From positions 1 to 55,225 of the forward strand of contig JBHPIO010000009.1 of the NCBI GenBank assembly GCA_042568575.1: DNA of 55,225 bases, in the 5' to 3' direction. The notes under the pieces were generated by a model. The model saw only the letters and a list, made by a program, of their open reading frames with translations, did no database searches and had not been told where the DNA came from. This document shows, piece after piece, positions 20,835-53,945 of the stretch (position 1 is the stretch's first letter; every line of letters begins with the position of its first letter). Source of the DNA: Patescibacteria group bacterium. Its GTDB lineage: Bacteria > Patescibacteriota > Gracilibacteria > UBA1369 > PNNO01. Made by a program: the position numbers and the translations under genes.

Positions 20835-20964
20835 ATAAACAACAACCATCCAATAAGGAGGTGAAACATGGACGGATGATTCAAAGTTGCAGAGCAATGA
20901 GTTTGGCAATGTACATGCATTTCGTTGAGCCATGGTGGCTTGGCGAAAAAGGAGAAAACGAAGA

Positions 20965-22008
20965 ATGTTACGTAAGACAACACTTATGGTGGCCGTGATC
21001 GGCCTATTTCTATTTGCCGGCACGGCGAAGGCGGATTTTCCGCCCGCACAGGGTCAAGCTGAAGATGTCGTGCTTTACGACTTTGGCTTGCAAATGCCCG
21101 AGAGCGTGACCACGGACTACTATGGCAACGTGTACGTGGGCCTGTTTATGTCAGGCATGTACGGCGAGATCATGGTGGTGGATCCGGATACGGGCACTTC
21201 ACAGGTTTATGAGCAATTCGACCTTGCTCTTCAGATGTGCGCGCCTGGTCAGGCTGCCGGAGTCGCAGGGATTTGGATTCATCCGTTTACACGGACGATG
21301 TATGCCAACGTGAACACATGCGATCCTGCGACCAAGGGAGTCTACAAGATCCCGAACGACGGAAGCGCACCAGTGTTGCTTTCGACGGCGCCGGTTCCCG
21401 CACTGTTCAACGGCATCGTGAAACGCGGCAACATGCTCTACAGTACGGACTCTTTCTCGATGACTGGAGCCGTGTATGCGACGCCCGTCGATGGGTTCGG
21501 CGCTCCCGCGGAAGTACTCGTAGAGCACCCGCTCATCGCGTTTGACCCGACGATTCTGCCTCCACCTGGTATTCCCTTTATGCCGGGAGCAAACGGCATC
21601 CAGAAGTACCATGGCGATTTGTACATCGGGCATTCCGGGAAGAACATCATCATCAAGGTTCCGCTTTCGGGATACTGCACAGGAATCACGGTTGGCGAGC
21701 CGGTTTGGCACGTGGACGCCCATGGCGTGGACGACTTCGCATTCGACTGGCGCGGCAACATCTATTTCACCAACGATCCCTTCAACGAGTTGATCAAAGT
21801 GACGCCGAACAACGTGTCCACGTTGCTCCTCGATGAGAATGATGGCATTAATGGCTCCACGGCGGCAGCGTTCGGTCGGCTTTGGGACAGAGAAGTTCTG
21901 TTCTTTACCAACGCGGCCTTCCCGTTCATGCCGCCGCCCTACAACAACGGCCAACCGCCGAGTCTGATGGCGTACGGCAACGATATAGGAGGTTATTGGT
22001 TCAGGTAG
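20965..22008 (+). CDS. Secreted SMP-30/gluconolactonase-like beta-propeller protein (GC-rich)
   Basis: Signal peptide (..GTAKA); PESV...GNVYV, FNGIV, GANGIQ, GVDDFAFD..GNIY, TAAAFG blades; SD AAGGAG upstream of ATG 20965. Confidence 0.75.
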   Translation: MLRKTTLMVAVIGLFLFAGTAKADFPPAQGQAEDVVLYDFGLQMPESVTTDYYGNVYVGLFMSGMYGEIMVVDPDTGTSQVYEQFDLALQMCAPGQAAGVAGIWIHPFTRTMYANVNTCDPATKGVYKIPNDGSAPVLLSTAPVPALFNGIVKRGNMLYSTDSFSMTGAVYATPVDGFGAPAEVLVEHPLIAFDPTILPPPGIPFMPGANGIQKYHGDLYIGHSGKNIIIKVPLSGYCTGITVGEPVWHVDAHGVDDFAFDWRGNIYFTNDPFNELIKVTPNNVSTLLLDENDGINGSTAAAFGRLWDREVLFFTNAAFPFMPPPYNNGQPPSLMAYGNDIGGYWFR

Positions 22009-23997: not shown

Positions 23998-24072
23998 AGT
24001 TTGAAAGTGAATTATATAGTGATCAGATTATAACATGAGTTAAATTTGTAACTATGGGGGAGCCAATTTTGA

Positions 24073-24196
24073 TTGACATTTGCCCGTATTCTGTCGTACG
24101 TTATGACCTCATGCATTGATTTAGCATGAGTTGTACTTTGACAACGCAAGCACCCGCTTTGGCGGGTATGCTTGTCAACGTGGATTTCAAAGTTTT
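24073..24196 (+). promoter_or_regulatory. Promoter and structured leader of GC-rich unit B
   Basis: TTGACA (24073-24078); hairpin CTCATGC/GCATGAG; boxA-like GTACTTTGACAA (24133-24144); hairpin GCAAGCACCCGC/GCGGGTATGCTTGT; 24179-24196 complementary to 27640-27658. Confidence 0.6.
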
Positions 24197-24318
24197 TTAC
24201 ATAATGTGTGATTTTTAAACCCGAGGATTCTGAAGGATTAGAAAGGAGTTTGGGAAAGGCTAGGTAGAGGAAAGAAGAGGATTCTGAACACAAACCCGAA
24301 CTGGAGAGGAAGTGACAC

Positions 24319-26301
24319 GTGCAGTTTGATCGAGACATTGGAATTATTGGTGCTGGCGTTATCGGACATGGCTTGGCCTACCCGATTGCGACGGCTATTG
24401 CGATGAGTGGTGGCAAGGTCATCATTCATGACACCAACCCGGAAGCGCTCGAGCGCGGCATCTCCGGCGCCCTGGGCTATGCGGCCAAGGGCTTGATGCG
24501 AGGCAAGATCTCGAAGAGGACGGCCGACGCCATCAAGCAGGCGATCGTGCCTGCGAAGAGCCTCGAGGACTTCCGCAGCTGTGGTTTGGTCATCGAGGCC
24601 GCCGTGGAGGATCTGAATATCAAAAAACAGATCCTGGCGGGCGTTGAGGAGGTAGTTACGCCGGATTGCCTGATCGGCTTTACGACTTCGGGCCTGTGTC
24701 GGAGCTGGATCGTCGAGGGGGCGAAGCATCCCGACCGGGGATGCGTCATCCACCCCTTCTTCCCGGCCTGGCGGAGCCCGCCGATCGAGGTCGTGGGCGT
24801 GGGCAAGTACTTCAAGCAGATGTACGATCTCATGATCCACCTGGGCAAAGTGCCCATCAAGGTCGCAGACGTTCCCTGTTTCGCGGCGGACCTCATCTTC
24901 TGCTCGTACGAGGCCGAAGCCATTCGGCTCGAGCAGGACGGAGTTGCGACGCGCTATCAGGTGGACCTCATCGCCAACAAGCACATCGGCGGTGGCGGGC
25001 CCTACCTGGTGCACGACCTGACCGGGGGCAACCCGCTCACCATCCACTGCCTGGAGCTCCTGCAGGAGCATCATCAGAGCGAGTGGTTCCAGACGCCCCA
25101 GCTCCTCATCGACCAAGGCACGGAGAAGTGGCTCGAGCATCAGCCTGATCCCGAAAAGGACGCCTACGACGCGGCCACGGAGAAGGCCGTCATGGACCGG
25201 CTACATGCGGTCCTGCTCGGCACCACCTTCCATGCTCTGGACAACGAGCTGTGCGCGCCCGGTGATCTCGACTGGCTCACCAGGATGGCCCTCGGTTTCA
25301 AGACCGGGCTTCTGGAGATGGGCAACAATATGGGTATGGGGCAGGTTCGAGACCTGTGTCAGGCCTACGCCAAGGACAACCCGGGTTTCCCCACGTCGAA
25401 GACGATCGATGGTGGCACGAGCTACCACTTCTTCAAGGACACGACCTGGGAAGTTTCGGAAGACAACGGTATCGCCGTGGTCACTGTTCGCCGTCCGGAG
25501 GCTGCCAACGCTCTGCGGAAGAACGTCATCCAGGAGCTGGATGCGATCTTCTTGGAGCTCGCGGCGGACGATGCCGTCAAGGGCATCATCTTCACCGGCT
25601 TCGGTGGCATGATCGCTGGGGCGGACATCATGGAGCTTGCCTCCCTGAAGACGCCCGCGGAGTGTGCCGAGTTCCCGAGGGAGGGGCAAATGCTCACCCT
25701 CGCCATGGAACAACTGAACAAGCCGATCGTGGCTGTGATCGACGGTGTCGCCTTTGGTGGTGGCGCTGAGATGGCCATGGCCTGCTGGGCACGAGTTCTC
25801 GGTCCCAAAGCTCTCATCGGACAACCCGAGGTGAAGCTCGGAATCGTTCCGGGCTATGGCGGGACCCAACGTCTGCCACGCCTGGTCGGTATGGAGCGCT
25901 CTCTCGAGATGCTTCGTCTCGGCAATCCCATCAAGGCAACGACTGCCGTCGAGTGGGGCTGGGCGAGCAAGTGCTCGCCCGATCCCATGAGGGAGGCCGA
26001 GTTGATGATCCGAAATCACTGTGATCCGGACAACGACTTCGTCCTCGAACCGCTATCCCACGATCCCATGAAGCAAGTTCCGATCGAGATCCCTGAGCTC
26101 GACATCGGGCATCTGAGCCTGGTGATCGATCGCATCCTGTTGGACACGGTGTTCGAAGGATTGGGGTTGACCATGGAGCATGGTCTCGAGTTTGAAGCCA
26201 ACGCCTGCGGCCGGTGCAAGGAAACCCAGGACATGGGTATCGGCATGGCCAACTTCATCCAGAACAAGGGCAAGGCGCCTGCCGTGTTCGTCAACAAATA
26301 G
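24319..26301 (+). CDS. 3-hydroxyacyl-CoA dehydrogenase / enoyl-CoA hydratase fusion (GC-rich)
   Basis: GIIGAGVIG Rossmann, VIEAAVEDL, HPFFP....IEVV; C-terminal crotonase GGGAE...GQPEVKLGIVPGYGGTQRLPRLVG; GTG start after GGAGAGGA. Confidence 0.9.
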   Translation: MQFDRDIGIIGAGVIGHGLAYPIATAIAMSGGKVIIHDTNPEALERGISGALGYAAKGLMRGKISKRTADAIKQAIVPAKSLEDFRSCGLVIEAAVEDLNIKKQILAGVEEVVTPDCLIGFTTSGLCRSWIVEGAKHPDRGCVIHPFFPAWRSPPIEVVGVGKYFKQMYDLMIHLGKVPIKVADVPCFAADLIFCSYEAEAIRLEQDGVATRYQVDLIANKHIGGGGPYLVHDLTGGNPLTIHCLELLQEHHQSEWFQTPQLLIDQGTEKWLEHQPDPEKDAYDAATEKAVMDRLHAVLLGTTFHALDNELCAPGDLDWLTRMALGFKTGLLEMGNNMGMGQVRDLCQAYAKDNPGFPTSKTIDGGTSYHFFKDTTWEVSEDNGIAVVTVRRPEAANALRKNVIQELDAIFLELAADDAVKGIIFTGFGGMIAGADIMELASLKTPAECAEFPREGQMLTLAMEQLNKPIVAVIDGVAFGGGAEMAMACWARVLGPKALIGQPEVKLGIVPGYGGTQRLPRLVGMERSLEMLRLGNPIKATTAVEWGWASKCSPDPMREAELMIRNHCDPDNDFVLEPLSHDPMKQVPIEIPELDIGHLSLVIDRILLDTVFEGLGLTMEHGLEFEANACGRCKETQDMGIGMANFIQNKGKAPAVFVNK

Positions 26302-26315
26302 ACAAGGGGGACATC

Positions 26316-27611
26316 ATGGAGAGACTACAGAAGCTCCTTCAAGAAGATCCGATCGTCATCGTCGGCGAACCCAAGCGCCTTCCGCGCGCCGACATCCTCG
26401 AGAACAACAAGGCCCCCGGCCTGTTCTCACACTTCACCACCAACCAGCTCGGTGGACTCGCACTCGCGGCCACTCTCAAGGCCACTCCTCAGATCGAGCC
26501 ATCCATGCTCGGCCATGTGGTGATGGGGAGAGCGGATCATGCCCACCGGGACTGCATCTACGGCGCCCGTGGCATGGCCCTGGAAGCCGGCATTCCGCAT
26601 GACGTGCCCGCTTGCACCGTGCAGCGCATCTGTGCAAGCGGTGTTCAAGGCATCATTACGGCTACAACCCAGGTGGTTGTTGGCGACCATCTTCCGGGAC
26701 GACCATATGTCGCGGCTGGCGGAGCCGAGTCCATGCAGTATCCGCACAAGCTGCCTGGTATGCGCGGACGCAAAGTGGGTGGTGCCACCGTCAAGTTCGG
26801 CCCGATTGACGCGAGCAAGCTCCCCAAGGGGACGTATCTCCAGGACGCGATGTTCATGGGGCTCTTCGATCCTCGCGCCGGCATGGCCATGGCCAACACG
26901 GCCGAAGAGCTGGCTCGCCGGTTCAACATCACACGGGAGCAGGCGGACGTGTTCGCCCATCGCTCTCACAAGCTGGCCATCACTGCCCGTGACAACGGAT
27001 ATTTCGACGACGAAATCGAGCCGGTCACCAACCTGCACGGCGACATCGTCGAGAACGACACTCACATCCTAGATGACATCTCCATGGGTGGGCTGGCCGG
27101 TCTACGCGTGGCCTTCGAAGAGGGCGGTATCATTACTCCCGGCAACGCCTCCGCAGTCGTGGACGGTGCGGCAGCAATGATCATGTGCCCGCTGTCCGCC
27201 GCCGACGAAGTCGGCGCCAAACCCATCGCTCGCATCGTGAGCTGGGGTATCGCCGGCTGTGATCCCAAGATAATGGGCTGGGGTCCGGTTCCCTCCACGC
27301 GCTTCGCGTTGGAAAACGCCGGACTCAAGGGCAACGACATCAGCACGGTGGAGCTCAACGAAGCCTTTGCACCGCAGGCCCTCGCCTGCATCATGGACTT
27401 CGAGAAGGAGTTCGGCATCGATCCCGAGAAGGTCAACCCGATGGGCAACGCTATCGCCATGGGCCATCCCCTCGGCGCCACCGGTGCCATCCTCACCGTC
27501 ACTGCCGCCCACCGCATGCGCAGACTCAATCAGCGCTACGGCCTCATCACCATGTGCGTCGGAGGAGGACAAGGTGTCTCGCTCATCATCGAGAACGCCG
27601 AGTTCATGTAG
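26316..27611 (+). CDS. Thiolase (acetyl-CoA C-acyltransferase) (GC-rich)
   Basis: RICASG, NEAFA, GHPLGATG, TMCVGGGQG; start set at ATG 26316 after AAGGGGG. Confidence 0.92.
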   Translation: MERLQKLLQEDPIVIVGEPKRLPRADILENNKAPGLFSHFTTNQLGGLALAATLKATPQIEPSMLGHVVMGRADHAHRDCIYGARGMALEAGIPHDVPACTVQRICASGVQGIITATTQVVVGDHLPGRPYVAAGGAESMQYPHKLPGMRGRKVGGATVKFGPIDASKLPKGTYLQDAMFMGLFDPRAGMAMANTAEELARRFNITREQADVFAHRSHKLAITARDNGYFDDEIEPVTNLHGDIVENDTHILDDISMGGLAGLRVAFEEGGIITPGNASAVVDGAAAMIMCPLSAADEVGAKPIARIVSWGIAGCDPKIMGWGPVPSTRFALENAGLKGNDISTVELNEAFAPQALACIMDFEKEFGIDPEKVNPMGNAIAMGHPLGATGAILTVTAAHRMRRLNQRYGLITMCVGGGQGVSLIIENAEFM

Positions 27612-27639
27612 GCGCATAAGCGCGCCGGGCTTCCCCCTC

Positions 27640-27778
27640 AAAACTTTGAACATCCACGGACATCAAAACGTGATTGATTACGTTTTCCACACCGCACTTC
27701 TAGAGACGTTCGTGGATGAACGCAGTTACACACACCTTTTAGGAGGCCTGGCGCACTGATTTTGCGCGAGGCCTCTTT
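27640..27778 (+). terminator. Structured trailer and terminator of unit B
   Basis: 27640-27658 pairs with the leader; local stems 27651-27661/27708-27718 and 27665-27674/27677-27686; terminal hairpin GAGGCCT..AGGCCTC-TTT (27743-27778). Confidence 0.6.
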
Positions 27779-27793
27779 CCCCTATCCAAAATT

Positions 27794-27837
27794 CCTCCCG
27801 GGAGGAGCTTGACAAATCCCTGCAATATGCGTAAATT
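27794..27837 (+). promoter_or_regulatory. Palindrome CCTCCCGGGAGG next to a sigma70 promoter
   Basis: CCTCCCGGGAGGAGCTTGAC (27794-27813) is identical to 53902-53921; TTGACA-17-TAAATT. Confidence 0.65.
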
Positions 27838-27975
27838 CTATATCCATGGCGTTGCGGGCATTTAGATTTGCTCAAGGTGTTCCGTAATGTCTGAAAATTG
27901 ACATTACGTTTTCGCTTTTAAACGCTAAACAACAAACGGGGCTTTAGTCCCTACAGATATGAAGGAGAACTTTCA

Positions 27976-29211
27976 ATGGCTGAACACACACACAAACAAC
28001 TGTTCCCATGGGGCTTTCTAGGTTCAATGGTTCTGATGTCGCTGCTTCTGATCGTTATGAGATATGGAAGCGACAAGTTCGCGTTTGTGGACTACTACGA
28101 CTACCACCACGCGGCAGAGCTGATTCGCAATGGCGAGAGCCCGTACGATGGTCCCAAGGCAGACGAACTCGCAAAGCGCGATAAAGTCCACGCGATCAAG
28201 GACAGCCACTACATCTACCCGCCTCCGCTTGCGATCGTCTTGGTGCCGCTCTCCTACCTGCATCCGAAAAACGGAGGCATGTTCTGGCATCTGTTGAGCG
28301 CAATTATGCTTCTGCTTGCCTTGGAACGCCTCACGAGATATTCGCAGACCAAGAGGCAGGAACTACTCATATTGCTATCCTTCTTTTTCGTTCCGACACT
28401 GTTCACTCTTTATGTCGGACAGGTGAACACCATCGTTCTTGCCTTAATTGTCTTGGCGATGGACGACTCACTGAGCAAAGAAAACCGTGATATTCGCGTT
28501 GGCGTATGGATCGGTCTTGCTGCGCTCATCAAGGTGAGTCCGATCCTGTTGCTCGCCGTATTTCTCTTTCGGGGAAAATGGCGGGTCATTCTGGTCTCCG
28601 TCGCGGTTGTTGCGGTTGGCTTTGCTATCAGCGAGCTGATCGTCCGAGGCAGCACTTCGCAGTTCTTCAACGACGTGATGCCCTCGTTGTGGCACAACCA
28701 GAACCACCACGCGCACCCGGCAAACCAGTCGTTCCGCGGCTGGATCCTTCGCCTCTTCACCCCAAACGATTGGACGAATCCGGTGCGGAATTACTCCGAG
28801 ACGATTTACATGTTCGTTGGCTCGATCAACGCCTTTATCGTTTGCATCACTATGTTGATGCTCTGGATTTCCAGGAAATCAGACTTCACAAGGAGGCAAG
28901 CCTATCTGGAAGCGGGCCTGGTCGTATCGTGCATCGTTCTGATCTCGCCCCTCGGGTGGGATCACACTTTCATCCTACTCCTCATTCCAGCAGCAGCGCT
29001 CTGGCGCATCGGCTACCACTGGCTGGTGATCGCCATGTATGGCCTCATGATCGTGCAGCGCGCGATCTTCATCCCGTTCGCCGACAATCCCTCAAGCTTC
29101 CCCTTCCTCGCGAAGCATCCAGTACTGTCCTGCAGCGGACTGCTGGGTGGTTGGTTCATCTTCTTCACCTGTGCCCATATTCTGGGTGACGTCAAAAAAA
29201 GCAAAACGTAA
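27976..29211 (+). CDS. GT87/DUF2029 (GT-C) membrane glycosyltransferase (GC-rich)
   Basis: DY..Y...A...G.SPY, YIYPP, GQVN, GLAALIKVSP, NQS, SPLGWDH; SD AAGGAG. Confidence 0.88.
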   Translation: MAEHTHKQLFPWGFLGSMVLMSLLLIVMRYGSDKFAFVDYYDYHHAAELIRNGESPYDGPKADELAKRDKVHAIKDSHYIYPPPLAIVLVPLSYLHPKNGGMFWHLLSAIMLLLALERLTRYSQTKRQELLILLSFFFVPTLFTLYVGQVNTIVLALIVLAMDDSLSKENRDIRVGVWIGLAALIKVSPILLLAVFLFRGKWRVILVSVAVVAVGFAISELIVRGSTSQFFNDVMPSLWHNQNHHAHPANQSFRGWILRLFTPNDWTNPVRNYSETIYMFVGSINAFIVCITMLMLWISRKSDFTRRQAYLEAGLVVSCIVLISPLGWDHTFILLLIPAAALWRIGYHWLVIAMYGLMIVQRAIFIPFADNPSSFPFLAKHPVLSCSGLLGGWFIFFTCAHILGDVKKSKT

Positions 29212-29219
29212 CGTCAACG

Positions 29220-29252
29220 GCGTCGTTCCCCTAAAAAAGGAGCGGCGCTTTT
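29220..29252 (+). terminator. Intrinsic terminator
   Basis: GCGTCGTTCC...GGAGCGGCGC-TTTT. Confidence 0.7.
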
Positions 29253-29260
29253 GACCCTAT

Positions 29261-30562
29261 CTACATTTCTGCCGCATACCATTCTGCAGAATCAACAATT
29301 ACATCTCCAATAAAATGTGTGAAGTGCAGATGCGATCCAGTTGCAATTCCTGTTGATCCCATCAACCCAATCAAGTCACCTTTATTAACAACTTGTCCTT
29401 CCTCAACTTTTAACGCGGACATATGAAGGTACATCGTGAACACGTTATGACCATGATCAATTATGATCGTATTACCATATGACATTGTTTCATCCGCCAA
29501 TGTCACAATTCCACTGTTGGAAGCGTAAATTTCAGTTCCTTCAACATTCCCATAATCAAGCCCAAAATGAGATCCTGAATATGCTCCGTTTATATATAAC
29601 TTGTCTCCAAATCCAAGAGTAATAACACCTTCTGTTGGAACAATAAATTCACCTTCCCAAAGCTGTTCCTCGCGTGGGTTACTTTTTGCAGCGTTAATCA
29701 TTGTCCAAGTATTGTCTTGTTGCGTCTGCCCAAATAGCTCAGTTTTTGTTTCCGGAAGCGTGAACGAAACAACCGTATAATTTTGTTCACCCACATCAAT
29801 CGTCACCTCAACCTGCTCAGACTCATCTTTGTTAAGCGTTAAACTCAGCGTTTTCGCGCCAGCATCTTTAGTCCGATGCAAGCCAACAAACGCTCGCAAA
29901 TAATCTTTTTCTCCAATTTGCGTAAACTCTTCAAGTTCCGCAGCTCTCGTAATCACAATCTGGGCTTCATCAAAATTAATATTTCGATCCGGTCTCATAA
30001 AACCATCTGGGTATCCTTTAAAAATCTCAGCCTTCATGGTTTGATTTATATATTCATAAAAACGATGATCTTCAGGGACGTCTTCAAACGAAGGGACGTC
30101 TTCTAATTTCTCCAAAGGATCGAATGCTCGCACAAGAATTTTCGCAATTTGACCTCTTGTTATTGGAGTGTATGGACGAAACTTGCCGTCCTCGTATCCA
30201 TGAATTATATCGAGCGCGGAAGCTTTGCTCACATATTGATAGAACGGATTCCCCGCTGGTACATCAGGGAATTGCGTAGCTTGAAAAGTATCAACATCTC
30301 CAAAATCTTCATTATCAAACATTAATTTTAAGAATTCTCCACGATTTATGGTCTCATCCCAATTCGGCGCATCAACGACTTCGTAAAATTTAACAATCTT
30401 TCCATTAAAAGAAGCATTCACCGATTCGATGTCGTCTTTGGCAATTTTAATCTCCAAGGTTTTGCCCTGCAAAATTTCATCCTCTACATAAACGCTCGCC
30501 GCATTCGCAGAAAACGGAATCAAAAATATCCCAATACCTACAATGATTTTTACGATTTTCAT
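29261..30562 (-). CDS. SLH-domain M23 peptidase
   Basis: SLH repeats (FPDVP, GYEDGKFRP, ITRGQ); HFGLD, YLHMS, TGSHLHF. Confidence 0.9.
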   Translation of the reverse strand: MKIVKIIVGIGIFLIPFSANAASVYVEDEILQGKTLEIKIAKDDIESVNASFNGKIVKFYEVVDAPNWDETINRGEFLKLMFDNEDFGDVDTFQATQFPDVPAGNPFYQYVSKASALDIIHGYEDGKFRPYTPITRGQIAKILVRAFDPLEKLEDVPSFEDVPEDHRFYEYINQTMKAEIFKGYPDGFMRPDRNINFDEAQIVITRAAELEEFTQIGEKDYLRAFVGLHRTKDAGAKTLSLTLNKDESEQVEVTIDVGEQNYTVVSFTLPETKTELFGQTQQDNTWTMINAAKSNPREEQLWEGEFIVPTEGVITLGFGDKLYINGAYSGSHFGLDYGNVEGTEIYASNSGIVTLADETMSYGNTIIIDHGHNVFTMYLHMSALKVEEGQVVNKGDLIGLMGSTGIATGSHLHFTHFIGDVIVDSAEWYAAEM

Positions 30563-30642
30563 GAAAAAAGTTTACCACGAACCGCAACTTTAAAATAGTT
30601 GTGTGTTATTGAAAGTGAAGGCATAATTAAAAATGACCTCTC

Positions 30643-32931
30643 ATGAGCACATTATTTAAATTCTTAACATATCAATCTATGAGAAAGTATCTCATTCTCG
30701 CGCTATTCTTAGTATTAGCCGTGAGTCAAATTTCGTTTGCGTCTTTTAACGATGTAAACTCAAACACTGATTATGAAACGGCTATCAGTTGGATGGCGGA
30801 TAACGGTGTTATTCAAGGGTATCCTGACGGGACATTTGGTCCTGATGTTTGTGTGAATAGAGTTGAAATGCTCAAAATGCTCTATTTAGCAACAGAAACA
30901 AATGTTAACGATCTAGCTGCTGGAGCTGGTTGGGCAGACTATTTTTCTGACGTTGATACCGATCAGTGGTATTGGCCATACCTCCGATTTGCTTTGCAGC
31001 AAGGCACTGTTGAAGGTTATCCGGATCAAACTTTTAAACCTAATCAGTGTGTGAATAGAGTTGAAGCTATTAAAATGGCAACTCTAGAATACAACGGTGG
31101 AAATCTACCTGTGGCTCAGGACCAACCTAATATGCCATACGATGCGTTGGCTGACCAATGGTATTATGGTTATCTCGAATATGTAATGTATGCGAATACT
31201 CTTGGGCAAAACCATACTGAAGTTACAGAAACTGGATATAACTTTTTCCCTGGCGATTCAATGACTCGTAAAGAAGTTGCCGAAATGCTTTACAGAATGA
31301 AAGCAATTCAAGATAGCAATGTATCTGTTTATGCGGACGGAATGGCTCCAGCTGCAATCGTAGACGCGGTTACATTCACAGGAATTACTTCTTTGTATAC
31401 TGATTCAATAATGGAAGATTACATTGATGATGTTGTTGCAGCTTACGGAGATGGAACAAGTGATTGGTCATACGTTCGAGGATTTTTTGAGTGGTACGAA
31501 GTTGGTGAAATTAACGTTGCGCCATACGAAGGATACAAGCTACTTGTTTTAGACAGCCTTTGTGATGGAATGTGTTTGTCATCGTACCTATATAGATTTG
31601 CATATAACGAAGATACTGGAGACCTTGTTATGTTAGATCGACATTCATCGTCTTCTTATACTCCAAGTTATGTAGAGCCACTTACAGTTGGTAAAGACAC
31701 AACAACATTACTTGCAGGGCTAAAATTACCTGAAACTATAGCTATTGCTGGAACTGATGCTTACATAACAAAGGTTACTGACGACGATTGGTATAACAAT
31801 GATGACAATTTAACTACTGTTGCATTTGTTGATCCTGTTGTGGGGAACGTTTACTATTATGGTGATGGAACATCTGCGGGATGTCTTTATGTTAAGAGTC
31901 CTGATGGTTCAGTAAGTACTTATGGATACGATCTTACATTATTGGAAGAAGCAGGTGTGACAATTGATTTTGAAGATGGAAGCGGGTCTGTTGTGGCTTC
32001 TGATAGTTATGGTTTAACTACCGGAGGATGCGGACTTGCAGGAAGTTGTTATTTTATTAGAGATATTGAGTTAGGCGATTTGGTACTAGCTGGAGTTTCT
32101 TCTAACGGAGTAAGTTTATACGAAGTGGCTGATCCTGTAGAAGGCATTTACGGAGAGGACACTGCCGGTTATAACGAAGCACAGGTTGAAGTAGATCAGG
32201 TTTATCAATTCTACGTTGGTCAATATAGTTATAGAGATGATTTAGAAGGATTAACTCCTCCAACTTTTGAAGAATTTCTAGACGATTATCCAGTTCTTTA
32301 CTGGCAAGATCCATTTGGAAGATGGAGCTCAATTACTGGTAGCACTTATAAAATCCCTGCAGAATGCGGAAAGCCGGTTGTTTATCTTTATCCAGAAGAA
32401 GCGACTGACGTTCATGTAGAAGTTGATATCGACGAGTTCACAGTTACTATTCCAGACTACGGAAAAGACGGATGGACTGTTAGAGCACAACCTGACGGAT
32501 CGCTTTACAACTATGCTGACGGAGAAGAATATCCATACCTTTTCTGGGAAGGTCACAAGAAAGATGGACTAACTACAGATCAAGGGTCCATGGTTGCAAA
32601 AGAAGATCTTGAAGAGTTCTTTACTAAGAACCTTGCTAAAATGGGACTAAATAAACAGGAAAGTGCAGACTTCATGGAATTCTGGGTTCCTGTAATGAAA
32701 GAAGATCCTGAAAATTATTTCTTTGTTAGCTTTATTGGAACACACGATTTTAATAAAGTTGCTCCACTAACTGTTGAGCCAAAACCGGATACAGTTATTA
32801 GAGTGTTCATGTATTATCATCCAACTTACAGACCGTTTGAGGTTCAGGAACAGAAATTATCAACAATCCCTAGAGATGGCTTCACAGTCATCGAATGGGG
32901 AGGAACATCATCAAGAACATGGAGAAGATAA
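30643..32931 (+). CDS. SLH-domain surface protein with C-terminal KPVVYLYP domain
   Basis: Three SLH repeats; CGKPVVYLYPE...YPYLFWEG...EWGG; start may be 30679. Confidence 0.8.
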   Translation: MSTLFKFLTYQSMRKYLILALFLVLAVSQISFASFNDVNSNTDYETAISWMADNGVIQGYPDGTFGPDVCVNRVEMLKMLYLATETNVNDLAAGAGWADYFSDVDTDQWYWPYLRFALQQGTVEGYPDQTFKPNQCVNRVEAIKMATLEYNGGNLPVAQDQPNMPYDALADQWYYGYLEYVMYANTLGQNHTEVTETGYNFFPGDSMTRKEVAEMLYRMKAIQDSNVSVYADGMAPAAIVDAVTFTGITSLYTDSIMEDYIDDVVAAYGDGTSDWSYVRGFFEWYEVGEINVAPYEGYKLLVLDSLCDGMCLSSYLYRFAYNEDTGDLVMLDRHSSSSYTPSYVEPLTVGKDTTTLLAGLKLPETIAIAGTDAYITKVTDDDWYNNDDNLTTVAFVDPVVGNVYYYGDGTSAGCLYVKSPDGSVSTYGYDLTLLEEAGVTIDFEDGSGSVVASDSYGLTTGGCGLAGSCYFIRDIELGDLVLAGVSSNGVSLYEVADPVEGIYGEDTAGYNEAQVEVDQVYQFYVGQYSYRDDLEGLTPPTFEEFLDDYPVLYWQDPFGRWSSITGSTYKIPAECGKPVVYLYPEEATDVHVEVDIDEFTVTIPDYGKDGWTVRAQPDGSLYNYADGEEYPYLFWEGHKKDGLTTDQGSMVAKEDLEEFFTKNLAKMGLNKQESADFMEFWVPVMKEDPENYFFVSFIGTHDFNKVAPLTVEPKPDTVIRVFMYYHPTYRPFEVQEQKLSTIPRDGFTVIEWGGTSSRTWRR

Positions 32932-33749
32932 CATCAATCATTCTGGGCGTGCTCTTTATGGGCACGCTCAGTTCCTGTTCATCGGAGTCGATAGAGCAGG
33001 CACAAACAGACAACTTAATAAAAGGCGCAGTTCTGCCTCACCATCTTATTGTGGATAATTATATGGATGACTTTTATTCAGAGATAGCTAGTGAGGTCGA
33101 TGTAGAAAGGGTTATCATCCTGGCTCCGAATCATTTCCATTATGGATTTAATTACGTTCAAACAACCAACTATATAGATGGGATGCCGCTTGATTTGGAT
33201 TTTGTGAATTATTTGTACAATGAGGAGGCGATTTATATTGAGCCAAAATATTTTGATAGAGAGCATGGGGTTTTTGTTCATCATGATTTCTTACAGCGTC
33301 ACTTTCCGGATGCAAAAATCGTTCCAATTATCATGAAAAAATACACACCAAAAGAAATTCTAGACGACTTGGTAGATACAATTGCAAAGCGCGATTTAGA
33401 AAATACTCTAATAATTTCGAGCATAGATTTTACTCATGTTACCTCAGAGGAAACTGCTTTAAAAAATGATGACAGAACAGTTAACTGGCTTAACGAATGG
33501 AGTGAAATGCAGCATAAGGAAGGTCAGTTTGATGATATTCACGAACTTGCAATAAGTTCAGAAATGGACACCGAAGAAGCTGTTGCAATAGACTCTCCAG
33601 AGAGTCTGTATGTTATGACTCAATTAATGGAAAACCAAAACGCATACAATTACACTCCATGGAAAAGAACTTCATCTGCTTCACTCACAGGAATAACTGA
33701 CCCGCTTCAAAACACGAGTCATATCTTTATGAAGTTTGAGAAGAGTTAG
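32919..33749 (+). CDS. MEMO1/AmmeMemoRadiSam-B-like lipoprotein
   Basis: Lipobox LSSC; LPHH, ILAPNH, EHG, SSIDFTH, DSP motifs. Confidence 0.7.
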   Translation: MEKITSIILGVLFMGTLSSCSSESIEQAQTDNLIKGAVLPHHLIVDNYMDDFYSEIASEVDVERVIILAPNHFHYGFNYVQTTNYIDGMPLDLDFVNYLYNEEAIYIEPKYFDREHGVFVHHDFLQRHFPDAKIVPIIMKKYTPKEILDDLVDTIAKRDLENTLIISSIDFTHVTSEETALKNDDRTVNWLNEWSEMQHKEGQFDDIHELAISSEMDTEEAVAIDSPESLYVMTQLMENQNAYNYTPWKRTSSASLTGITDPLQNTSHIFMKFEKS

Positions 33750-34659
33750 ATTCCAACTCTGCAAACATATCAGTGAATACTTGGCGAACTTGGTGAGCAA
33801 CAATATTGTTAATATCGACACAGCCCTGTTCACGTCCAAATTCCAATCCATTGTGGGCTACAAATTCAAGTCCAACAACGTGTCTACCCTCTTCAGGATC
33901 TGCATAAAGCACGGTTGAACCCTTGTCGCCTTTAAAAGGACCTGTCCCGTCCATAACAATAAGTCCAGCATCTTTAAAAGTTTTTCTGACAATATTTGAA
34001 ATTACAGAACTGCATGATTCTCCTTCATTAGTGATCAGAACTAGATCAGGCCATTCTTCAGGGAACTTTTCTCCACGTTTTGCAGGACCAGTATATGTAT
34101 ATGCTCCAGCAGGGGTTGCTTCTAGGTTGACTGCAGGCATTGTGTGACAATCGATCAGAATTGCGTAGCCATGTTTCTCTAATACTGTATCCATTGCTGC
34201 TCTAACTGCCTGCCTGTAGGGATTATAATGTCTCTCAAGGATTTCTTGATATTCTTTGTGCGTGTACGGTCTTTTTAAAAGTTCAAATGGGTCATCACCT
34301 TTTCGTTCAAGGGATTGATGCCAAATTAGTCCATGTGCACGACCTTCCTTTCCTTGGCCTTCGACAGAATTTTCATCAACATCTTCTATACCCCTATTCA
34401 CATCTACGAGTGCGCGTGGAAGTTTGGTCCAAACACGTGAATGTCTCAGTTGATTCTGGAATCCTGTGATTTTTGGTACAGATTGATCAGCTCCTGCTCT
34501 AATTGTACGCTCGGCGTCTTCGTCACCAAATTTAAATACATCAGCAATCGGTCCACTAAGATCTTTCGGAACCTGAATTGCACTATGCGGCATTGAGAGA
34601 ACTAAAGGTGATTCTCCTTCTTCATATCTTACGTAAGTATCTGAGTTTTCTGGAGTCAT
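33727..34659 (-). CDS. N-formylglutamate amidohydrolase family protein
   Basis: PLVLSMPHS, RALVDVNR, PYR, LIDCHTM. Confidence 0.8.
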   Translation of the reverse strand: MTPENSDTYVRYEEGESPLVLSMPHSAIQVPKDLSGPIADVFKFGDEDAERTIRAGADQSVPKITGFQNQLRHSRVWTKLPRALVDVNRGIEDVDENSVEGQGKEGRAHGLIWHQSLERKGDDPFELLKRPYTHKEYQEILERHYNPYRQAVRAAMDTVLEKHGYAILIDCHTMPAVNLEATPAGAYTYTGPAKRGEKFPEEWPDLVLITNEGESCSSVISNIVRKTFKDAGLIVMDGTGPFKGDKGSTVLYADPEEGRHVVGLEFVAHNGLEFGREQGCVDINNIVAHQVRQVFTDMFAELESNSSQTS

Positions 34660-53851: not shown

Positions 53852-53945
53852 GCCTCCCCGGGGAGGCGTGATCTCAAAGCGCTTAATGAAGTTTTTATAT
53901 CCCTCCCGGGAGGAGCTTGACTAATTTGTAAAAACAGTTTATATT
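53852..53945. repeat. REP-like palindrome pair, second copy next to a promoter
   Basis: GCCTCCCCGGGGAGGC (53852-53867), CCTCCCGGGAGG (53902-53913), then TTGACT-17-TATATT. Confidence 0.65.

What the first reader, a model, noticed from the sequence alone, without database searches (positions are those of the whole stretch)
27883..29217. Unit C (GT87): leader pairs across its own stop codon
Seen: TTGACATTACGTTTTCGCTTTT (27898-27919) versus the reverse complement of 29197-29217, TTGACGTTACGTTTTGCTTTT: 20 matches, one mismatch, one bulge. The 3' arm covers the last codons and TAA. The 5' arm also has a local alternative, CGTAATGTC (27883-27891) / GACATTACG (27900-27908). No clear boxA here. The mismatch is A-C on the sense strand (G-T on the antisense), so it does not by itself favour sense-RNA pairing.
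Basis: seen in the sequence. Interest (0 to 1): 0.7.

Follow-up and report, generated by a model that had tools for sequence, protein, structure and literature searches.

The report
Inverted repeat bracketing a foreign glycosyltransferase gene
A 21-22-base inverted repeat really does join the leader of a horizontally acquired glycosyltransferase gene to its last codons and stop codon, but it looks more like a boundary mark of an imported gene cassette than a proven RNA switch, and orthologues needed to settle this could not be fetched.

Summary
The repeat is real: 27898-27919 matches the reverse complement of 29197-29217 with 20 matches, one mismatch and one bulge. The gene is a GT87 glycosyltransferase. 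It lies in a 53-62% GC island inside a 38% GC, 1.2 Mb genome. No orthologue was found in 40, 400 or 204 related genomes.

How significant the repeat looks depends on the scoring:
- Strict scoring: 3 of 7049 permuted pairs reach it.
- Loose scoring: meaningless orientations reach it as often.
- Duplex energy: matched by 81 of 706 genes.
- Lying across the stop codon is what chance matches also do.

Context argues against pure chance. Outside an integron-like cassette array on another contig, the only leader/tail inverted repeats of this strength are in GC-rich foreign units: this gene, the neighbouring fadB-thiolase operon and one gene on contig C1.

My best reading (0.35) is a DNA-level cassette-boundary repeat resembling a split attC site. 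Rivals are mRNA 5'-3' closure (0.25) and chance (0.2). Compensatory change could not be tested.

The parts
27793..27837 (+). Promoter of the unit. It consists of a 14-bp perfect palindrome (27793-27806) abutting a -35 hexamer (27809-27814), a 17-nt spacer and a -10 hexamer (27832-27837).
   Evidence: The promoter scan gives 10 of 12 matches. The palindrome plus -35 module occurs 10 times in the genome with at most 3 substitutions, mostly in normal-GC surroundings, so it is a native promoter type.
27845..27893 (+). Upstream alternative hairpin of the leader. It sequesters the 5' half of the terminator-like stem, which makes it a candidate antiterminator.
   Evidence: It has -19.4 kcal/mol and is the minimum-energy fold of the nascent RNA up to 27908. 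It also appears in the full-length fold.
27883..27908 (+). Leader hairpin with a 9-bp stem and 8-nt loop, followed by a T tract (27909-27919). It looks like an intrinsic terminator.
   Evidence: Reported by the terminator scan. Energy is -11.2 kcal/mol, and pair probability is 0.98-1.0 when the leader is folded alone. The leader's z-score is -3.26, and 0 of 200 shuffles fold as well.
27898..27919 (+). 5' arm of the inverted repeat. It comprises the end of the loop, the 3' half of the leader hairpin and the T tract.
27961..27969 (+). Shine-Dalgarno region, 6 nt upstream of the ATG. The 5' arm does not overlap it.
   Evidence: Read from the sequence.
27976..29211 (+). GT87-family glycosyltransferase gene, 411 aa, 53% GC.
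   Evidence: Pfam PF09594 at E 2.2e-36. A weak NCBIfam mannosyltransferase match scores 60 bits, below its cut-off of 413. GC content.
29197..29217 (+). 3' arm of the inverted repeat. It comprises the last codons, the TAA stop (29209-29211) and six further bases. Bases 29206-29212 end in AAC, like an attC R'' box.
   Evidence: The basic C-terminal tail is kept in the two 50-54% identical homologues.
29213..29255 (+). Terminator hairpin directly after the 3' arm. Its first five bases belong to the arm.
   Evidence: Energy is -24.5 kcal/mol. The z-score is -3.85 on the + strand and -1.20 on the - strand.
24179..24196 (+). Leader arm of the analogous inverted repeat of the neighbouring GC-rich operon (fadB-like plus thiolase, 24319-27611).
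   Evidence: 18 matches plus one bulge against 27640-27658. Strict score is 15, against 9, 7 and 7 for the control orientations.
27640..27658 (+). Tail arm of the neighbouring operon's inverted repeat, 29-47 nt after its stop. It lies inside an 86-nt local hairpin (27642-27727).
   Evidence: The local hairpin has z -3.55.

Best explanation
The inverted repeat is most likely a DNA-level boundary feature of a horizontally acquired gene cassette.

The GT87 unit, roughly 27904 to 29255, resembles the gene cassettes of this genome's own integron-like array. In those cassettes the first 18-26 bases are complementary to the stretch around the cassette's own stop codon. In an excised, circular or single-stranded form the two ends would therefore close the outer stem of the recombination hairpin (attC).

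On this reading the parts map as follows:
- The 3' arm (last codons, stop, and a 7-mer ending in AAC) is the R''-side of such a site.
- The hairpin at 29213-29255 is its inner stem, and it also serves as the transcription terminator.
- The 5' arm is the other half of the site, left at the cassette's start after insertion downstream of a native promoter.

What is shown: the repeat itself, the foreign composition, the integron-like array with its cassette-specific start/tail complementarity, and the restriction of such repeats to acquired units.

What is inferred: that this unit moved as a cassette, the position of the crossover, and any present-day activity.

In the integrated state the repeat may have no function beyond the local leader hairpin and the terminator.
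For: (1) The gene is foreign.
- GC is 53-62% across 24000-29250, against about 38% in all 31 contigs.
- No relative was found in 0 of 40 relatives, 0 of 400 genomes sampled from the phylum or 0 of 204 other genomes of the order.

(2) The same genome has an integron-like array on contig C12.
- At least 8 attC-like sites of 101-148 nt have AAC and GTT cores.
- They lie next to a tyrosine recombinase that reaches the NCBIfam 'site-specific tyrosine recombinase/integron integrase' cut-off, 220.8 against 220 bits.
- Four of its cassettes show start/tail inverted repeats with strict scores of 15-20. The one examined closely spans its own stop codon.

(3) Strong leader/tail repeats are confined to acquired units.
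- Across 460 transcription units, 5 reach a strict score of at least 15, against 0.6 expected. Four are those cassettes and the fifth is this gene.
- At a score of at least 14, 2 of 26 GC-rich units qualify, and so do 4 of 453 other units. The four top-scoring non-GC-rich units are all cassettes of the array.
- The permuted null within GC-rich units is 1 of 650.
- The neighbouring GC-rich operon also scores 15. The wide-geometry null is 6 of 4212 permuted pairs.

(4) Layout of the 3' arm.
- The 7-mer ending in AAC overlaps the stop codon and is followed at once by a stem-loop, as in the array's sites.

(5) Position of the discrepancies.
- In both this unit and the neighbouring operon, the arms disagree at the G of a GTT triplet. 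It is a G-to-A change here and a missing G in the operon. That is where an integron-type crossover junction would lie.

(6) The one mismatch is G-T on the bottom strand and A-C on the sense strand.
Against: - No GTT box follows the inner hairpin at the presumed right junction, and the left junction has A rather than G before TT.
- The inner hairpin is only 43 nt, and it folds far better on the + strand (z -3.85) than on the - strand (z -1.20), as expected of an RNA terminator.
- The arms share no sequence with the C12 family, and the 15-base core is unique in the genome.
- The unit is not in an array, and no recombinase lies in the window. All 4 PF00589 matches are on other contigs.
- 22 or more of the 26 GC-rich units have no such repeat.
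- The contig C1 case has no AAC or GTT core.
- Taken over the whole genome without conditioning on GC, 3 non-array units at a score of at least 14 against about 1.1 expected is not significant. I chose the GC-rich grouping after seeing the island.
- The basic C-terminal tail is shared with homologues of 50-54% identity. The coding part of the 3' arm is therefore old, not created by insertion.
Confidence: 0.35

Rival explanations
1. Functional mRNA closure. In the full-length GT87 mRNA, the last codons and stop pair with the leader segment 27904-27919. This displaces the terminator-like hairpin in favour of the 5'-terminal hairpin 27845-27893. The closed form would protect or regulate the transcript, and terminating ribosomes would open it. 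A variant is that the prematurely terminated leader RNA acts in trans on the stop-codon region.
For: - The long-range helix is present in the minimum-energy and centroid folds of the 1413-nt transcript.
- Its pair probabilities are 0.77-0.98, while the local hairpin falls to 0.03.
- Both arms lie between the promoter and the terminator, and the same holds for the contig C1 unit.
- The leader is unusually structured, with z -3.26, and has two mutually exclusive hairpins.
- Precedents exist. The icaR 3'-UTR pairs with its SD region (PMC3868564, abstract read). A 14-bp 5'/3'-UTR interaction occurs in hbs mRNA (PMC5737220, abstract read).
Against: - The duplex energy is ordinary: 81 of 706 true pairs and 53 of 705 permuted pairs are as good.
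- The mismatch is A-C in the sense RNA.
- 15 of 21 bases of the 3' arm are translated, so ribosomes would unwind the helix.
- The SD region (27961-27969) is not covered.
- There is no genome-wide excess of leader/tail pairing once the integron array is set aside.
- This reading gives no reason why only foreign GC-rich units should have such a repeat.
- Pairs of 1.4-kb folds are unreliable.
Confidence: 0.25
2. Coincidence between two elements that each have their own local explanation. The 5' arm is the 3' half plus T tract of a leader attenuator or terminator hairpin. The 3' arm is a lysine-rich C-terminal tail (AAA codons), the TAA stop and the foot of the terminator stem.
For: - Each part of each arm has a local role.
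- Loose-score matches of this size are as frequent in orientations that cannot pair: direct 10 and reverse-only 6, against 5 of 706.
- About 0.6 units per genome are expected to reach the strict score by chance.
- High-scoring chance matches usually fall on the stop codon, 47 of 67.
- The first stage scanned very many windows.
Against: - By strict score only 3 of 7049 permuted pairs and 0 of 706 reverse-only or complement-only controls reach it.
- The adjacent operon has an equally strong repeat, with a null of 6 of 4212.
- All non-array hits fall in the roughly 5% of units that are GC-rich.
Confidence: 0.2
3. Two binding sites for one DNA-binding protein. The leader carries a perfect 9-8-9 palindrome (27883-27908), and the 3' end carries one further half-site (29207-29215, 8 of 9 identical to 27883-27891). 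A regulator could bind both and loop the gene.
For: - The palindrome geometry is operator-like and lies at about +38 to +64.
- The half-site is repeated at the 3' end.
Against: - Only a half-site is present at the 3' end.
- The motif occurs nowhere else in the genome, so there is no regulon.
- The complementarity extends through the T tract, which an operator would not need.
Confidence: 0.07
4. Invertible segment. A recombinase flips 27920-29196 between the arms, turning the glycosyltransferase off behind its fixed promoter (phase variation).
For: - The arms lie between the promoter and the RBS and at the gene's end, so an inversion would uncouple the gene from its promoter.
- Surface glycosyltransferases are common phase-variable genes (recalled).
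- Four tyrosine recombinases are encoded in the genome.
Against: - No recombinase lies in the window.
- The neighbouring operon with a similar repeat is metabolic.
- The three repeats do not share one recognition sequence.
- No reads could be examined.
Confidence: 0.05

Closest known systems
Integron gene cassettes with attC sites
   Same: - A single acquired ORF.
- The stop codon lies in or next to a 7-mer ending in AAC, followed at once by an imperfect hairpin.
- The first bases of the unit are complementary to the region around its own stop.
- The same genome holds a real attC-like array with exactly this start/tail complementarity and an adjacent integrase-like gene.
   Different: - It is not in an array and has no adjacent integrase.
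- No GTT box lies at the right junction, and no G precedes TT at the left one.
- The inner hairpin is short (43 nt).
- There is no sequence likeness to the C12 family.
- It has its own native-type promoter and a 130-nt leader.
5'-UTR/3'-UTR pairing within one bacterial mRNA: icaR of Staphylococcus aureus (PMC3868564) and hbs of Bacillus subtilis (PMC5737220); abstracts read
   Same: A 14-20-bp helix between the leader and the 3' end of the same transcript is predicted here to be stable.
   Different: - In icaR the 3'-UTR masks the SD region and creates an RNase III site. In hbs the helix overlaps an RNase Y site in the 5'-UTR.
- Here the SD region is free.
- Most of the 3' arm is coding sequence and includes the stop codon.
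- Nothing is known of cleavage.
Transcription attenuators with alternative terminator and antiterminator hairpins
   Same: The leader has a hairpin plus U tract and a more stable upstream alternative that sequesters its 5' half.
   Different: - No known riboswitch, T-box or other Rfam family matches.
- The effector is unknown.
- The 3' arm is made too late to influence leader termination in cis.
Mobile insertion cassettes and MITE-like non-autonomous elements (passenger genes between terminal inverted repeats; recalled, not searched)
   Same: A foreign passenger gene lies between 21-22-bp inverted repeats with no transposase.
   Different: - No target-site duplication flanks the arms.
- The arms are single-copy in the genome.
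- The right arm lies inside the ORF.

Membership tests
Integron gene cassette / attC site | An R'' box of the form RYYYAAC at the 5' end of the site, often overlapping the stop codon (consensus recalled) | tested here: inconclusive
   Bases 29206-29212 end in AAC and match 6 of 7 consensus positions. They overlap the TAA stop.
Integron gene cassette / attC site | An R' box GTTRRRY at the 3' end of the site, with G|TT at both junctions of an inserted cassette | tested here: not met
   No GTT follows the hairpin ending at 29255. The left junction reads A before TT at 27903/27904.
Integron gene cassette / attC site | An imperfect inner stem (L''/L') directly after R'' | tested here: met
   The hairpin 29213-29255 starts one base after the AAC and has -24.5 kcal/mol.
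Integron gene cassette / attC site | Location in an array next to an integron integrase | tested here: not met
   The window has no recombinase. The array and the integrase-like gene are on contig C12.
Integron gene cassette / attC site | The cassette start is complementary to its own R''-proximal region, as seen in this genome's array | tested here: met
   The strict score is 15 here, against 15-20 in four C12 cassettes.
Intramolecular 5'-UTR/3'-UTR regulatory pairing (icaR / hbs type) | Both partners lie in untranslated regions | tested here: not met
   15 of the 21 bases of the 3' arm are the last codons and the stop.
Intramolecular 5'-UTR/3'-UTR regulatory pairing (icaR / hbs type) | The helix covers the SD region or a mapped RNase site | tested here: not met
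   The 5' arm ends at 27919 and the SD region is at 27961-27969. RNase sites cannot be tested.
Intramolecular 5'-UTR/3'-UTR regulatory pairing (icaR / hbs type) | The pairing is conserved or compensated among orthologues | not testable with these tools
Intrinsic terminator / attenuator in a leader | A stem-loop followed directly by a U tract, downstream of the promoter and upstream of the ORF | tested here: met
   The scan reports 27883-27908 plus its tail. The promoter is at 27809-27837.
Intrinsic terminator / attenuator in a leader | A mutually exclusive antiterminator structure | tested here: met
   The hairpin 27845-27893 (-19.4 kcal/mol) uses the terminator's 5' half. This is a prediction only.
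Glycosyltransferase family 87 | A match to Pfam PF09594 above the gathering score | tested here: met
   126.3 bits against a cut-off of 25, covering the whole profile.
Any Rfam RNA family | A covariance-model match | tested here: not met
   No match at E up to 1 in 27000-30000 on either strand.

The most novel reading that the evidence does not exclude
Reduced genomes of this lineage may import single foreign genes as hairpin-bounded cassettes. After insertion behind native promoters, the split recombination site would persist as a leader/stop-codon inverted repeat. That split site could then be reused at the RNA level: it would close the mRNA end to end and compete with a leader terminator, so that one element serves mobility, termination and expression control. 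Such a cassette type would lie outside canonical integron arrays and would not follow the canonical GTT/AAC junction rules.
Probability: 0.15. Interest if true: 0.75.

Novelty: new variant of a known kind. Interest (0 to 1): 0.42.

Why it matters
If the repeat marks a cassette boundary, it shows how a 1.2 Mb genome with almost no spare DNA takes up and expresses foreign envelope and metabolic genes. It would also extend integron-like cassette traffic beyond arrays and beyond canonical attC rules.

If instead the pairing acts in RNA, it would be a rare bacterial case of an mRNA closed across its own stop codon.

Either way there is a practical lesson for this kind of scan. In AT-rich genomes, leader/3'-end complementarity that covers the stop codon is the commonest form of chance match. 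Such a match needs permuted-pair and orientation controls before it is read as RNA structure.

Tried and rejected
**Orthologue search**
- The protein alone and a 3-sequence alignment found no confirmed relative in genome contigs or metagenome contigs.
- A degenerate DNA pattern for an invariant peptide found nothing in metagenome contigs.
- No relative was found in 40 relatives, 400 genomes of the phylum or 204 genomes of the order.
- Only two homologues (54% and 50% identity) exist in the protein collection.

**Synteny**
- The convergent M23/SLH gene has orthologues in two family members, but no neighbouring gene is shared.
- The same-genus genome breaks its contig at the point corresponding to 30555.
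- Insertion boundaries could therefore not be mapped.

**Sequencing runs**
- None was listed for 27600-29400, and no RNA holder was listed. Read laying was not used, so inversion and circular junctions were not tested.

**Plasmid collection**
- Only the conserved thiolase matched by DNA, and GT87 gave no protein match.

**Ideas rejected**
- A third copy of the arm motif near 27674: rejected, because 26 sites in the genome are as close.
- A shared GTTAAGT core as a genome-wide signal: rejected, with 73 sites against about 124 expected.
- A sequence family joining the neighbouring operon's arms and the C1 arms: only an 8-mer is shared, and it occurs 42 times in the genome. This is suggestive at best.
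- The promoter palindrome as an island marker: rejected, because most copies lie in normal-GC DNA.
- A second promoter inside either arm: rejected, no acceptable -10 (by eye).
- The 3' arm as part of a minus-strand terminator for the M23 gene: possible but weak, z -1.20.
- A classical transposon: rejected, no target duplication.

**Not done**
- I considered building a covariance model of the C12 attC-like sites but did not, because the family is sequence-specific.

**Tools unavailable**
- Supplements of the two papers were not needed.
Full report
**Observation**

The 5' arm is 27898-27919 and the 3' arm is 29197-29217. A gapped alignment gives 20 matches, one mismatch and one bulged C in the 5' arm. 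The mismatch is 27903 A against 29212 C.

The repeat finder reports the pair ungapped at 82%. The ORF runs from 27976 to 29211, so the 3' arm covers the last codons, the TAA stop and six further bases. The local alternative (27883-27891 with 27900-27908) is a perfect 9-bp hairpin followed by a T tract, and the terminator scan lists it.

**Anatomy of the unit**

- A sigma-70-type promoter lies at 27809-27837, matching 10 of 12 positions.
- A 14-bp palindrome directly precedes it. Together with the -35 hexamer it recurs 10 times in the genome, mostly in normal-GC DNA. The promoter is therefore of a native type.
- The leader of about 130 nt is strongly structured. Its z-score is -3.26, and 0 of 200 shuffles fold as well.
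- The leader has two exclusive folds. One is the terminator-like hairpin (-11.2 kcal/mol). The other is an upstream hairpin, 27845-27893 (-19.4 kcal/mol), which takes the terminator's 5' half and is the best fold of the nascent chain up to 27908.
- The gene is a GT87 glycosyltransferase (Pfam E 2.2e-36).
- A hairpin at 29213-29255 follows the 3' arm. It folds much better on the + strand (z -3.85) than on the - strand (z -1.20), as a terminator of this gene should.
- No Rfam family matches.

**Context**

The window is contig C31 of a 1.2 Mb, 31-contig assembly with about 38% GC throughout. Bases 24000-29250 have 53-62% GC, and 20932-22008 has 56%.

The island holds a fadB-like gene, a thiolase and the GT87 gene. 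No relative of GT87 was found in 40 relatives, 400 genomes of the phylum or 204 other genomes of the order. Only two homologues, of 54% and 50% identity, are in the protein collection. The gene is therefore a recent import.

The two homologues keep a short basic tail ending in Thr, so the coding part of the 3' arm is old.

**Is the repeat more than chance?**

Under loose scoring (+1/-1/-2) the repeat scores 17.
- 1 of 2000 dinucleotide shuffles reach this.
- 27 of 7057 permuted leader/tail pairs from this genome reach it, against 5 of 706 true pairs.
- Orientations that cannot pair reach it about as often. Direct gives 10 of 706, reverse-only 6 of 706 and complement-only 0 of 706.

Under strict scoring (+1/-2/-3) the repeat scores 15.
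- 2 of 706 true pairs reach this.
- 3 of 7049 permuted pairs reach it.
- None of the reverse-only or complement-only controls reach it (0 of 706 each). Four direct controls do.

By energy the repeat is ordinary. The best-tile duplex is -22.6 kcal/mol, and 81 of 706 true pairs and 53 of 705 permuted pairs are as good.

The position across the stop codon is not special either. Among permuted pairs scoring at least 16, 47 of 67 cover the stop, against 10 of 13 true pairs. The AT-rich region around stop codons is simply where chance matches fall.

**A pattern among acquired units**

The neighbouring GC-rich operon (24319-27611) has its own leader/tail repeat, 24179-24196 against 27640-27658. It has 18 matches and one bulge. 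Its strict score is 15, with control orientations at 9, 7 and 7. The null for that geometry is 6 of 4212 permuted pairs.

With crude gene calls grouped into 460 transcription units, 5 units reach a strict score of 15, against 0.6 expected. Four of these lie in one cluster on contig C12 and the fifth is GT87. At a score of at least 14 a GC-rich gene on contig C1 joins them.

Split by composition, 2 of 26 GC-rich units and 4 of 453 other units reach 14. The four non-GC-rich units that top the ranking are all cassettes of the C12 cluster. The permuted null within GC-rich units is 1 of 650. The operon was scored by hand, because spurious ORFs broke it in the automatic calls.

Without conditioning on GC, 3 non-cluster hits against about 1.1 expected is not significant. 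The argument rests on all of them falling in the roughly 5% of units that are foreign, and I made that grouping after seeing the island. Most GC-rich units (at least 22 of 26) have no repeat.

**The C12 cluster as a positive control**

The cluster is an integron-like array. Short ORFs are each followed by a site of 101-148 nt that begins with a 7-mer ending in AAC and ends with GTT. It lies beside a tyrosine recombinase that just reaches the NCBIfam cut-off for 'site-specific tyrosine recombinase/integron integrase'. The score is 220.8 against 220 bits, and the classical integron-integrase model stays below its cut-off at 195 against 265 bits.

In these cassettes the first 18-26 bases are complementary to the stretch around the cassette's own stop codon, with cassette-specific sequences. 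That is the same topology as in GT87.

GT87 shares several features with them:
- an AAC-ended 7-mer over the stop codon;
- an immediately following stem;
- a disagreement between the arms at the G of a GTT. The same is seen in the neighbouring operon, where that G is missing from the leader arm.

GT87 fails on several other features:
- the GTT at the right junction;
- the G at the left junction;
- the size of the site;
- array context;
- sequence likeness to the C12 family.

**The RNA reading**

The full-length fold contains the long-range helix. Pairs 27904-27919 with 29197-29211 have probability 0.77-0.98, and the local hairpin drops to 0.03.

Known cases of such pairing exist. In icaR the 3'-UTR masks the SD region and makes an RNase III substrate (PMC3868564). 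In hbs a 14-bp 5'/3'-UTR helix modulates RNase Y cleavage (PMC5737220). I read the abstracts only.

This case differs from them. The SD region is free and most of the 3' arm is translated. The single mismatch is unfavourable in the sense RNA. The energy is unremarkable. The reading also gives no reason why only foreign units should carry such repeats.

**Verdict**

The interpretation as sense-RNA pairing is possible but unsupported.

| Reading | Confidence |
|---|---|
| DNA-level cassette-boundary repeat related to, but not a member of, the integron attC kind | 0.35 |
| Functional mRNA closure | 0.25 |
| Coincidence of a leader terminator with a lysine-rich tail and terminator foot | 0.20 |
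| Two sites for one DNA-binding protein | 0.07 |
| Invertible segment | 0.05 |

The decisive data are the loci of the two homologues and reads across possible circular or inverted junctions.

Noticed in passing
G000 contig C12, about 63500-71460 (loci L023 and L024): An integron-like gene-cassette array. At least 8 attC-like sites of 101-148 nt, with AAC and GTT cores, separate short minus-strand ORFs. A divergent tyrosine recombinase (L024 303-1157) reaches the NCBIfam 'tyrosine recombinase/integron integrase' cut-off (220.8 against 220 bits) but not the classical integron-integrase cut-off. The start of each cassette is complementary to its own stop-codon region. This is notable in a 1.2 Mb genome.
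   Followed up: partly
window 24179-24196 and 27640-27658: The neighbouring GC-rich fadB-like/thiolase operon has its own leader/tail inverted repeat, with 18 matches and one bulge. The tail arm lies in an 86-nt hairpin (27642-27727) that begins with AAC and ends with GTT.
   Followed up: partly
G000 contig C1, 11939-11952 and 13876-13889 (locus L022): A perfect 14-nt inverted repeat brackets a 54% GC gene of 605 aa with no Pfam match. One arm lies directly after the stop and the other in a long structured leader downstream of a good promoter. It shares an 8-mer with the repeat of the window's neighbouring operon.
   Followed up: partly
window 27793-27814 and 53901-53922, plus 8 further sites on C1, C3, C12, C23 and C29: A conserved promoter module: a 14-bp GC-rich perfect palindrome directly abutting the -35 hexamer. 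There are 10 copies with at most 3 substitutions. It may be the operator of a regulon, and several downstream genes start without a visible Shine-Dalgarno sequence.
   Followed up: partly
window 20932-22008 and 24000-29250, and about 30 further segments in the genome: Many short islands of 50-62% GC lie in a 38% GC genome. Some may be rRNA, but several are single protein genes, which suggests repeated import from GC-rich donors.
   Followed up: partly
window 27846-27887: A 13-codon ORF starts with ATG at about the predicted transcription start, so it would be leaderless. It ends with a TAA inside the 5' half of the terminator-like stem. It could be a leader peptide for attenuation, or chance.
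   Followed up: no
window 27665-27686: A 7-8-7 palindrome flanked by A and T tracts lies in the 3' region of the thiolase operon. Its 3' half resembles the 5' arm of the finding, but 26 sites in the genome are as similar.
   Followed up: yes
window 30555-34000 against G001 contig C11: In the same-genus genome, the intergenic stretch 30555-30633 (95% identical) is followed within about 90 nt by the counterpart of 32932-34000 (77% identical). The 762-aa SLH protein gene (30643-32931) is therefore missing there.
   Followed up: no
whole genome, transcription-unit scan: Direct repeats between the leader and tail of the same unit are strongly enriched, with 11 of 460 units at a strict score of at least 15 against about 0.6 expected. 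Part of this is the C12 array. One search lists four high-scoring direct repeats on other contigs (C4, C3, C1 and C23), which I did not examine.
   Followed up: no
window 27925-27953 and 29231-29259: A weak direct repeat (22 of 29 bases) links the leader just after the 5' arm with the loop and 3' half of the terminator hairpin. Its significance is unclear.
   Followed up: no
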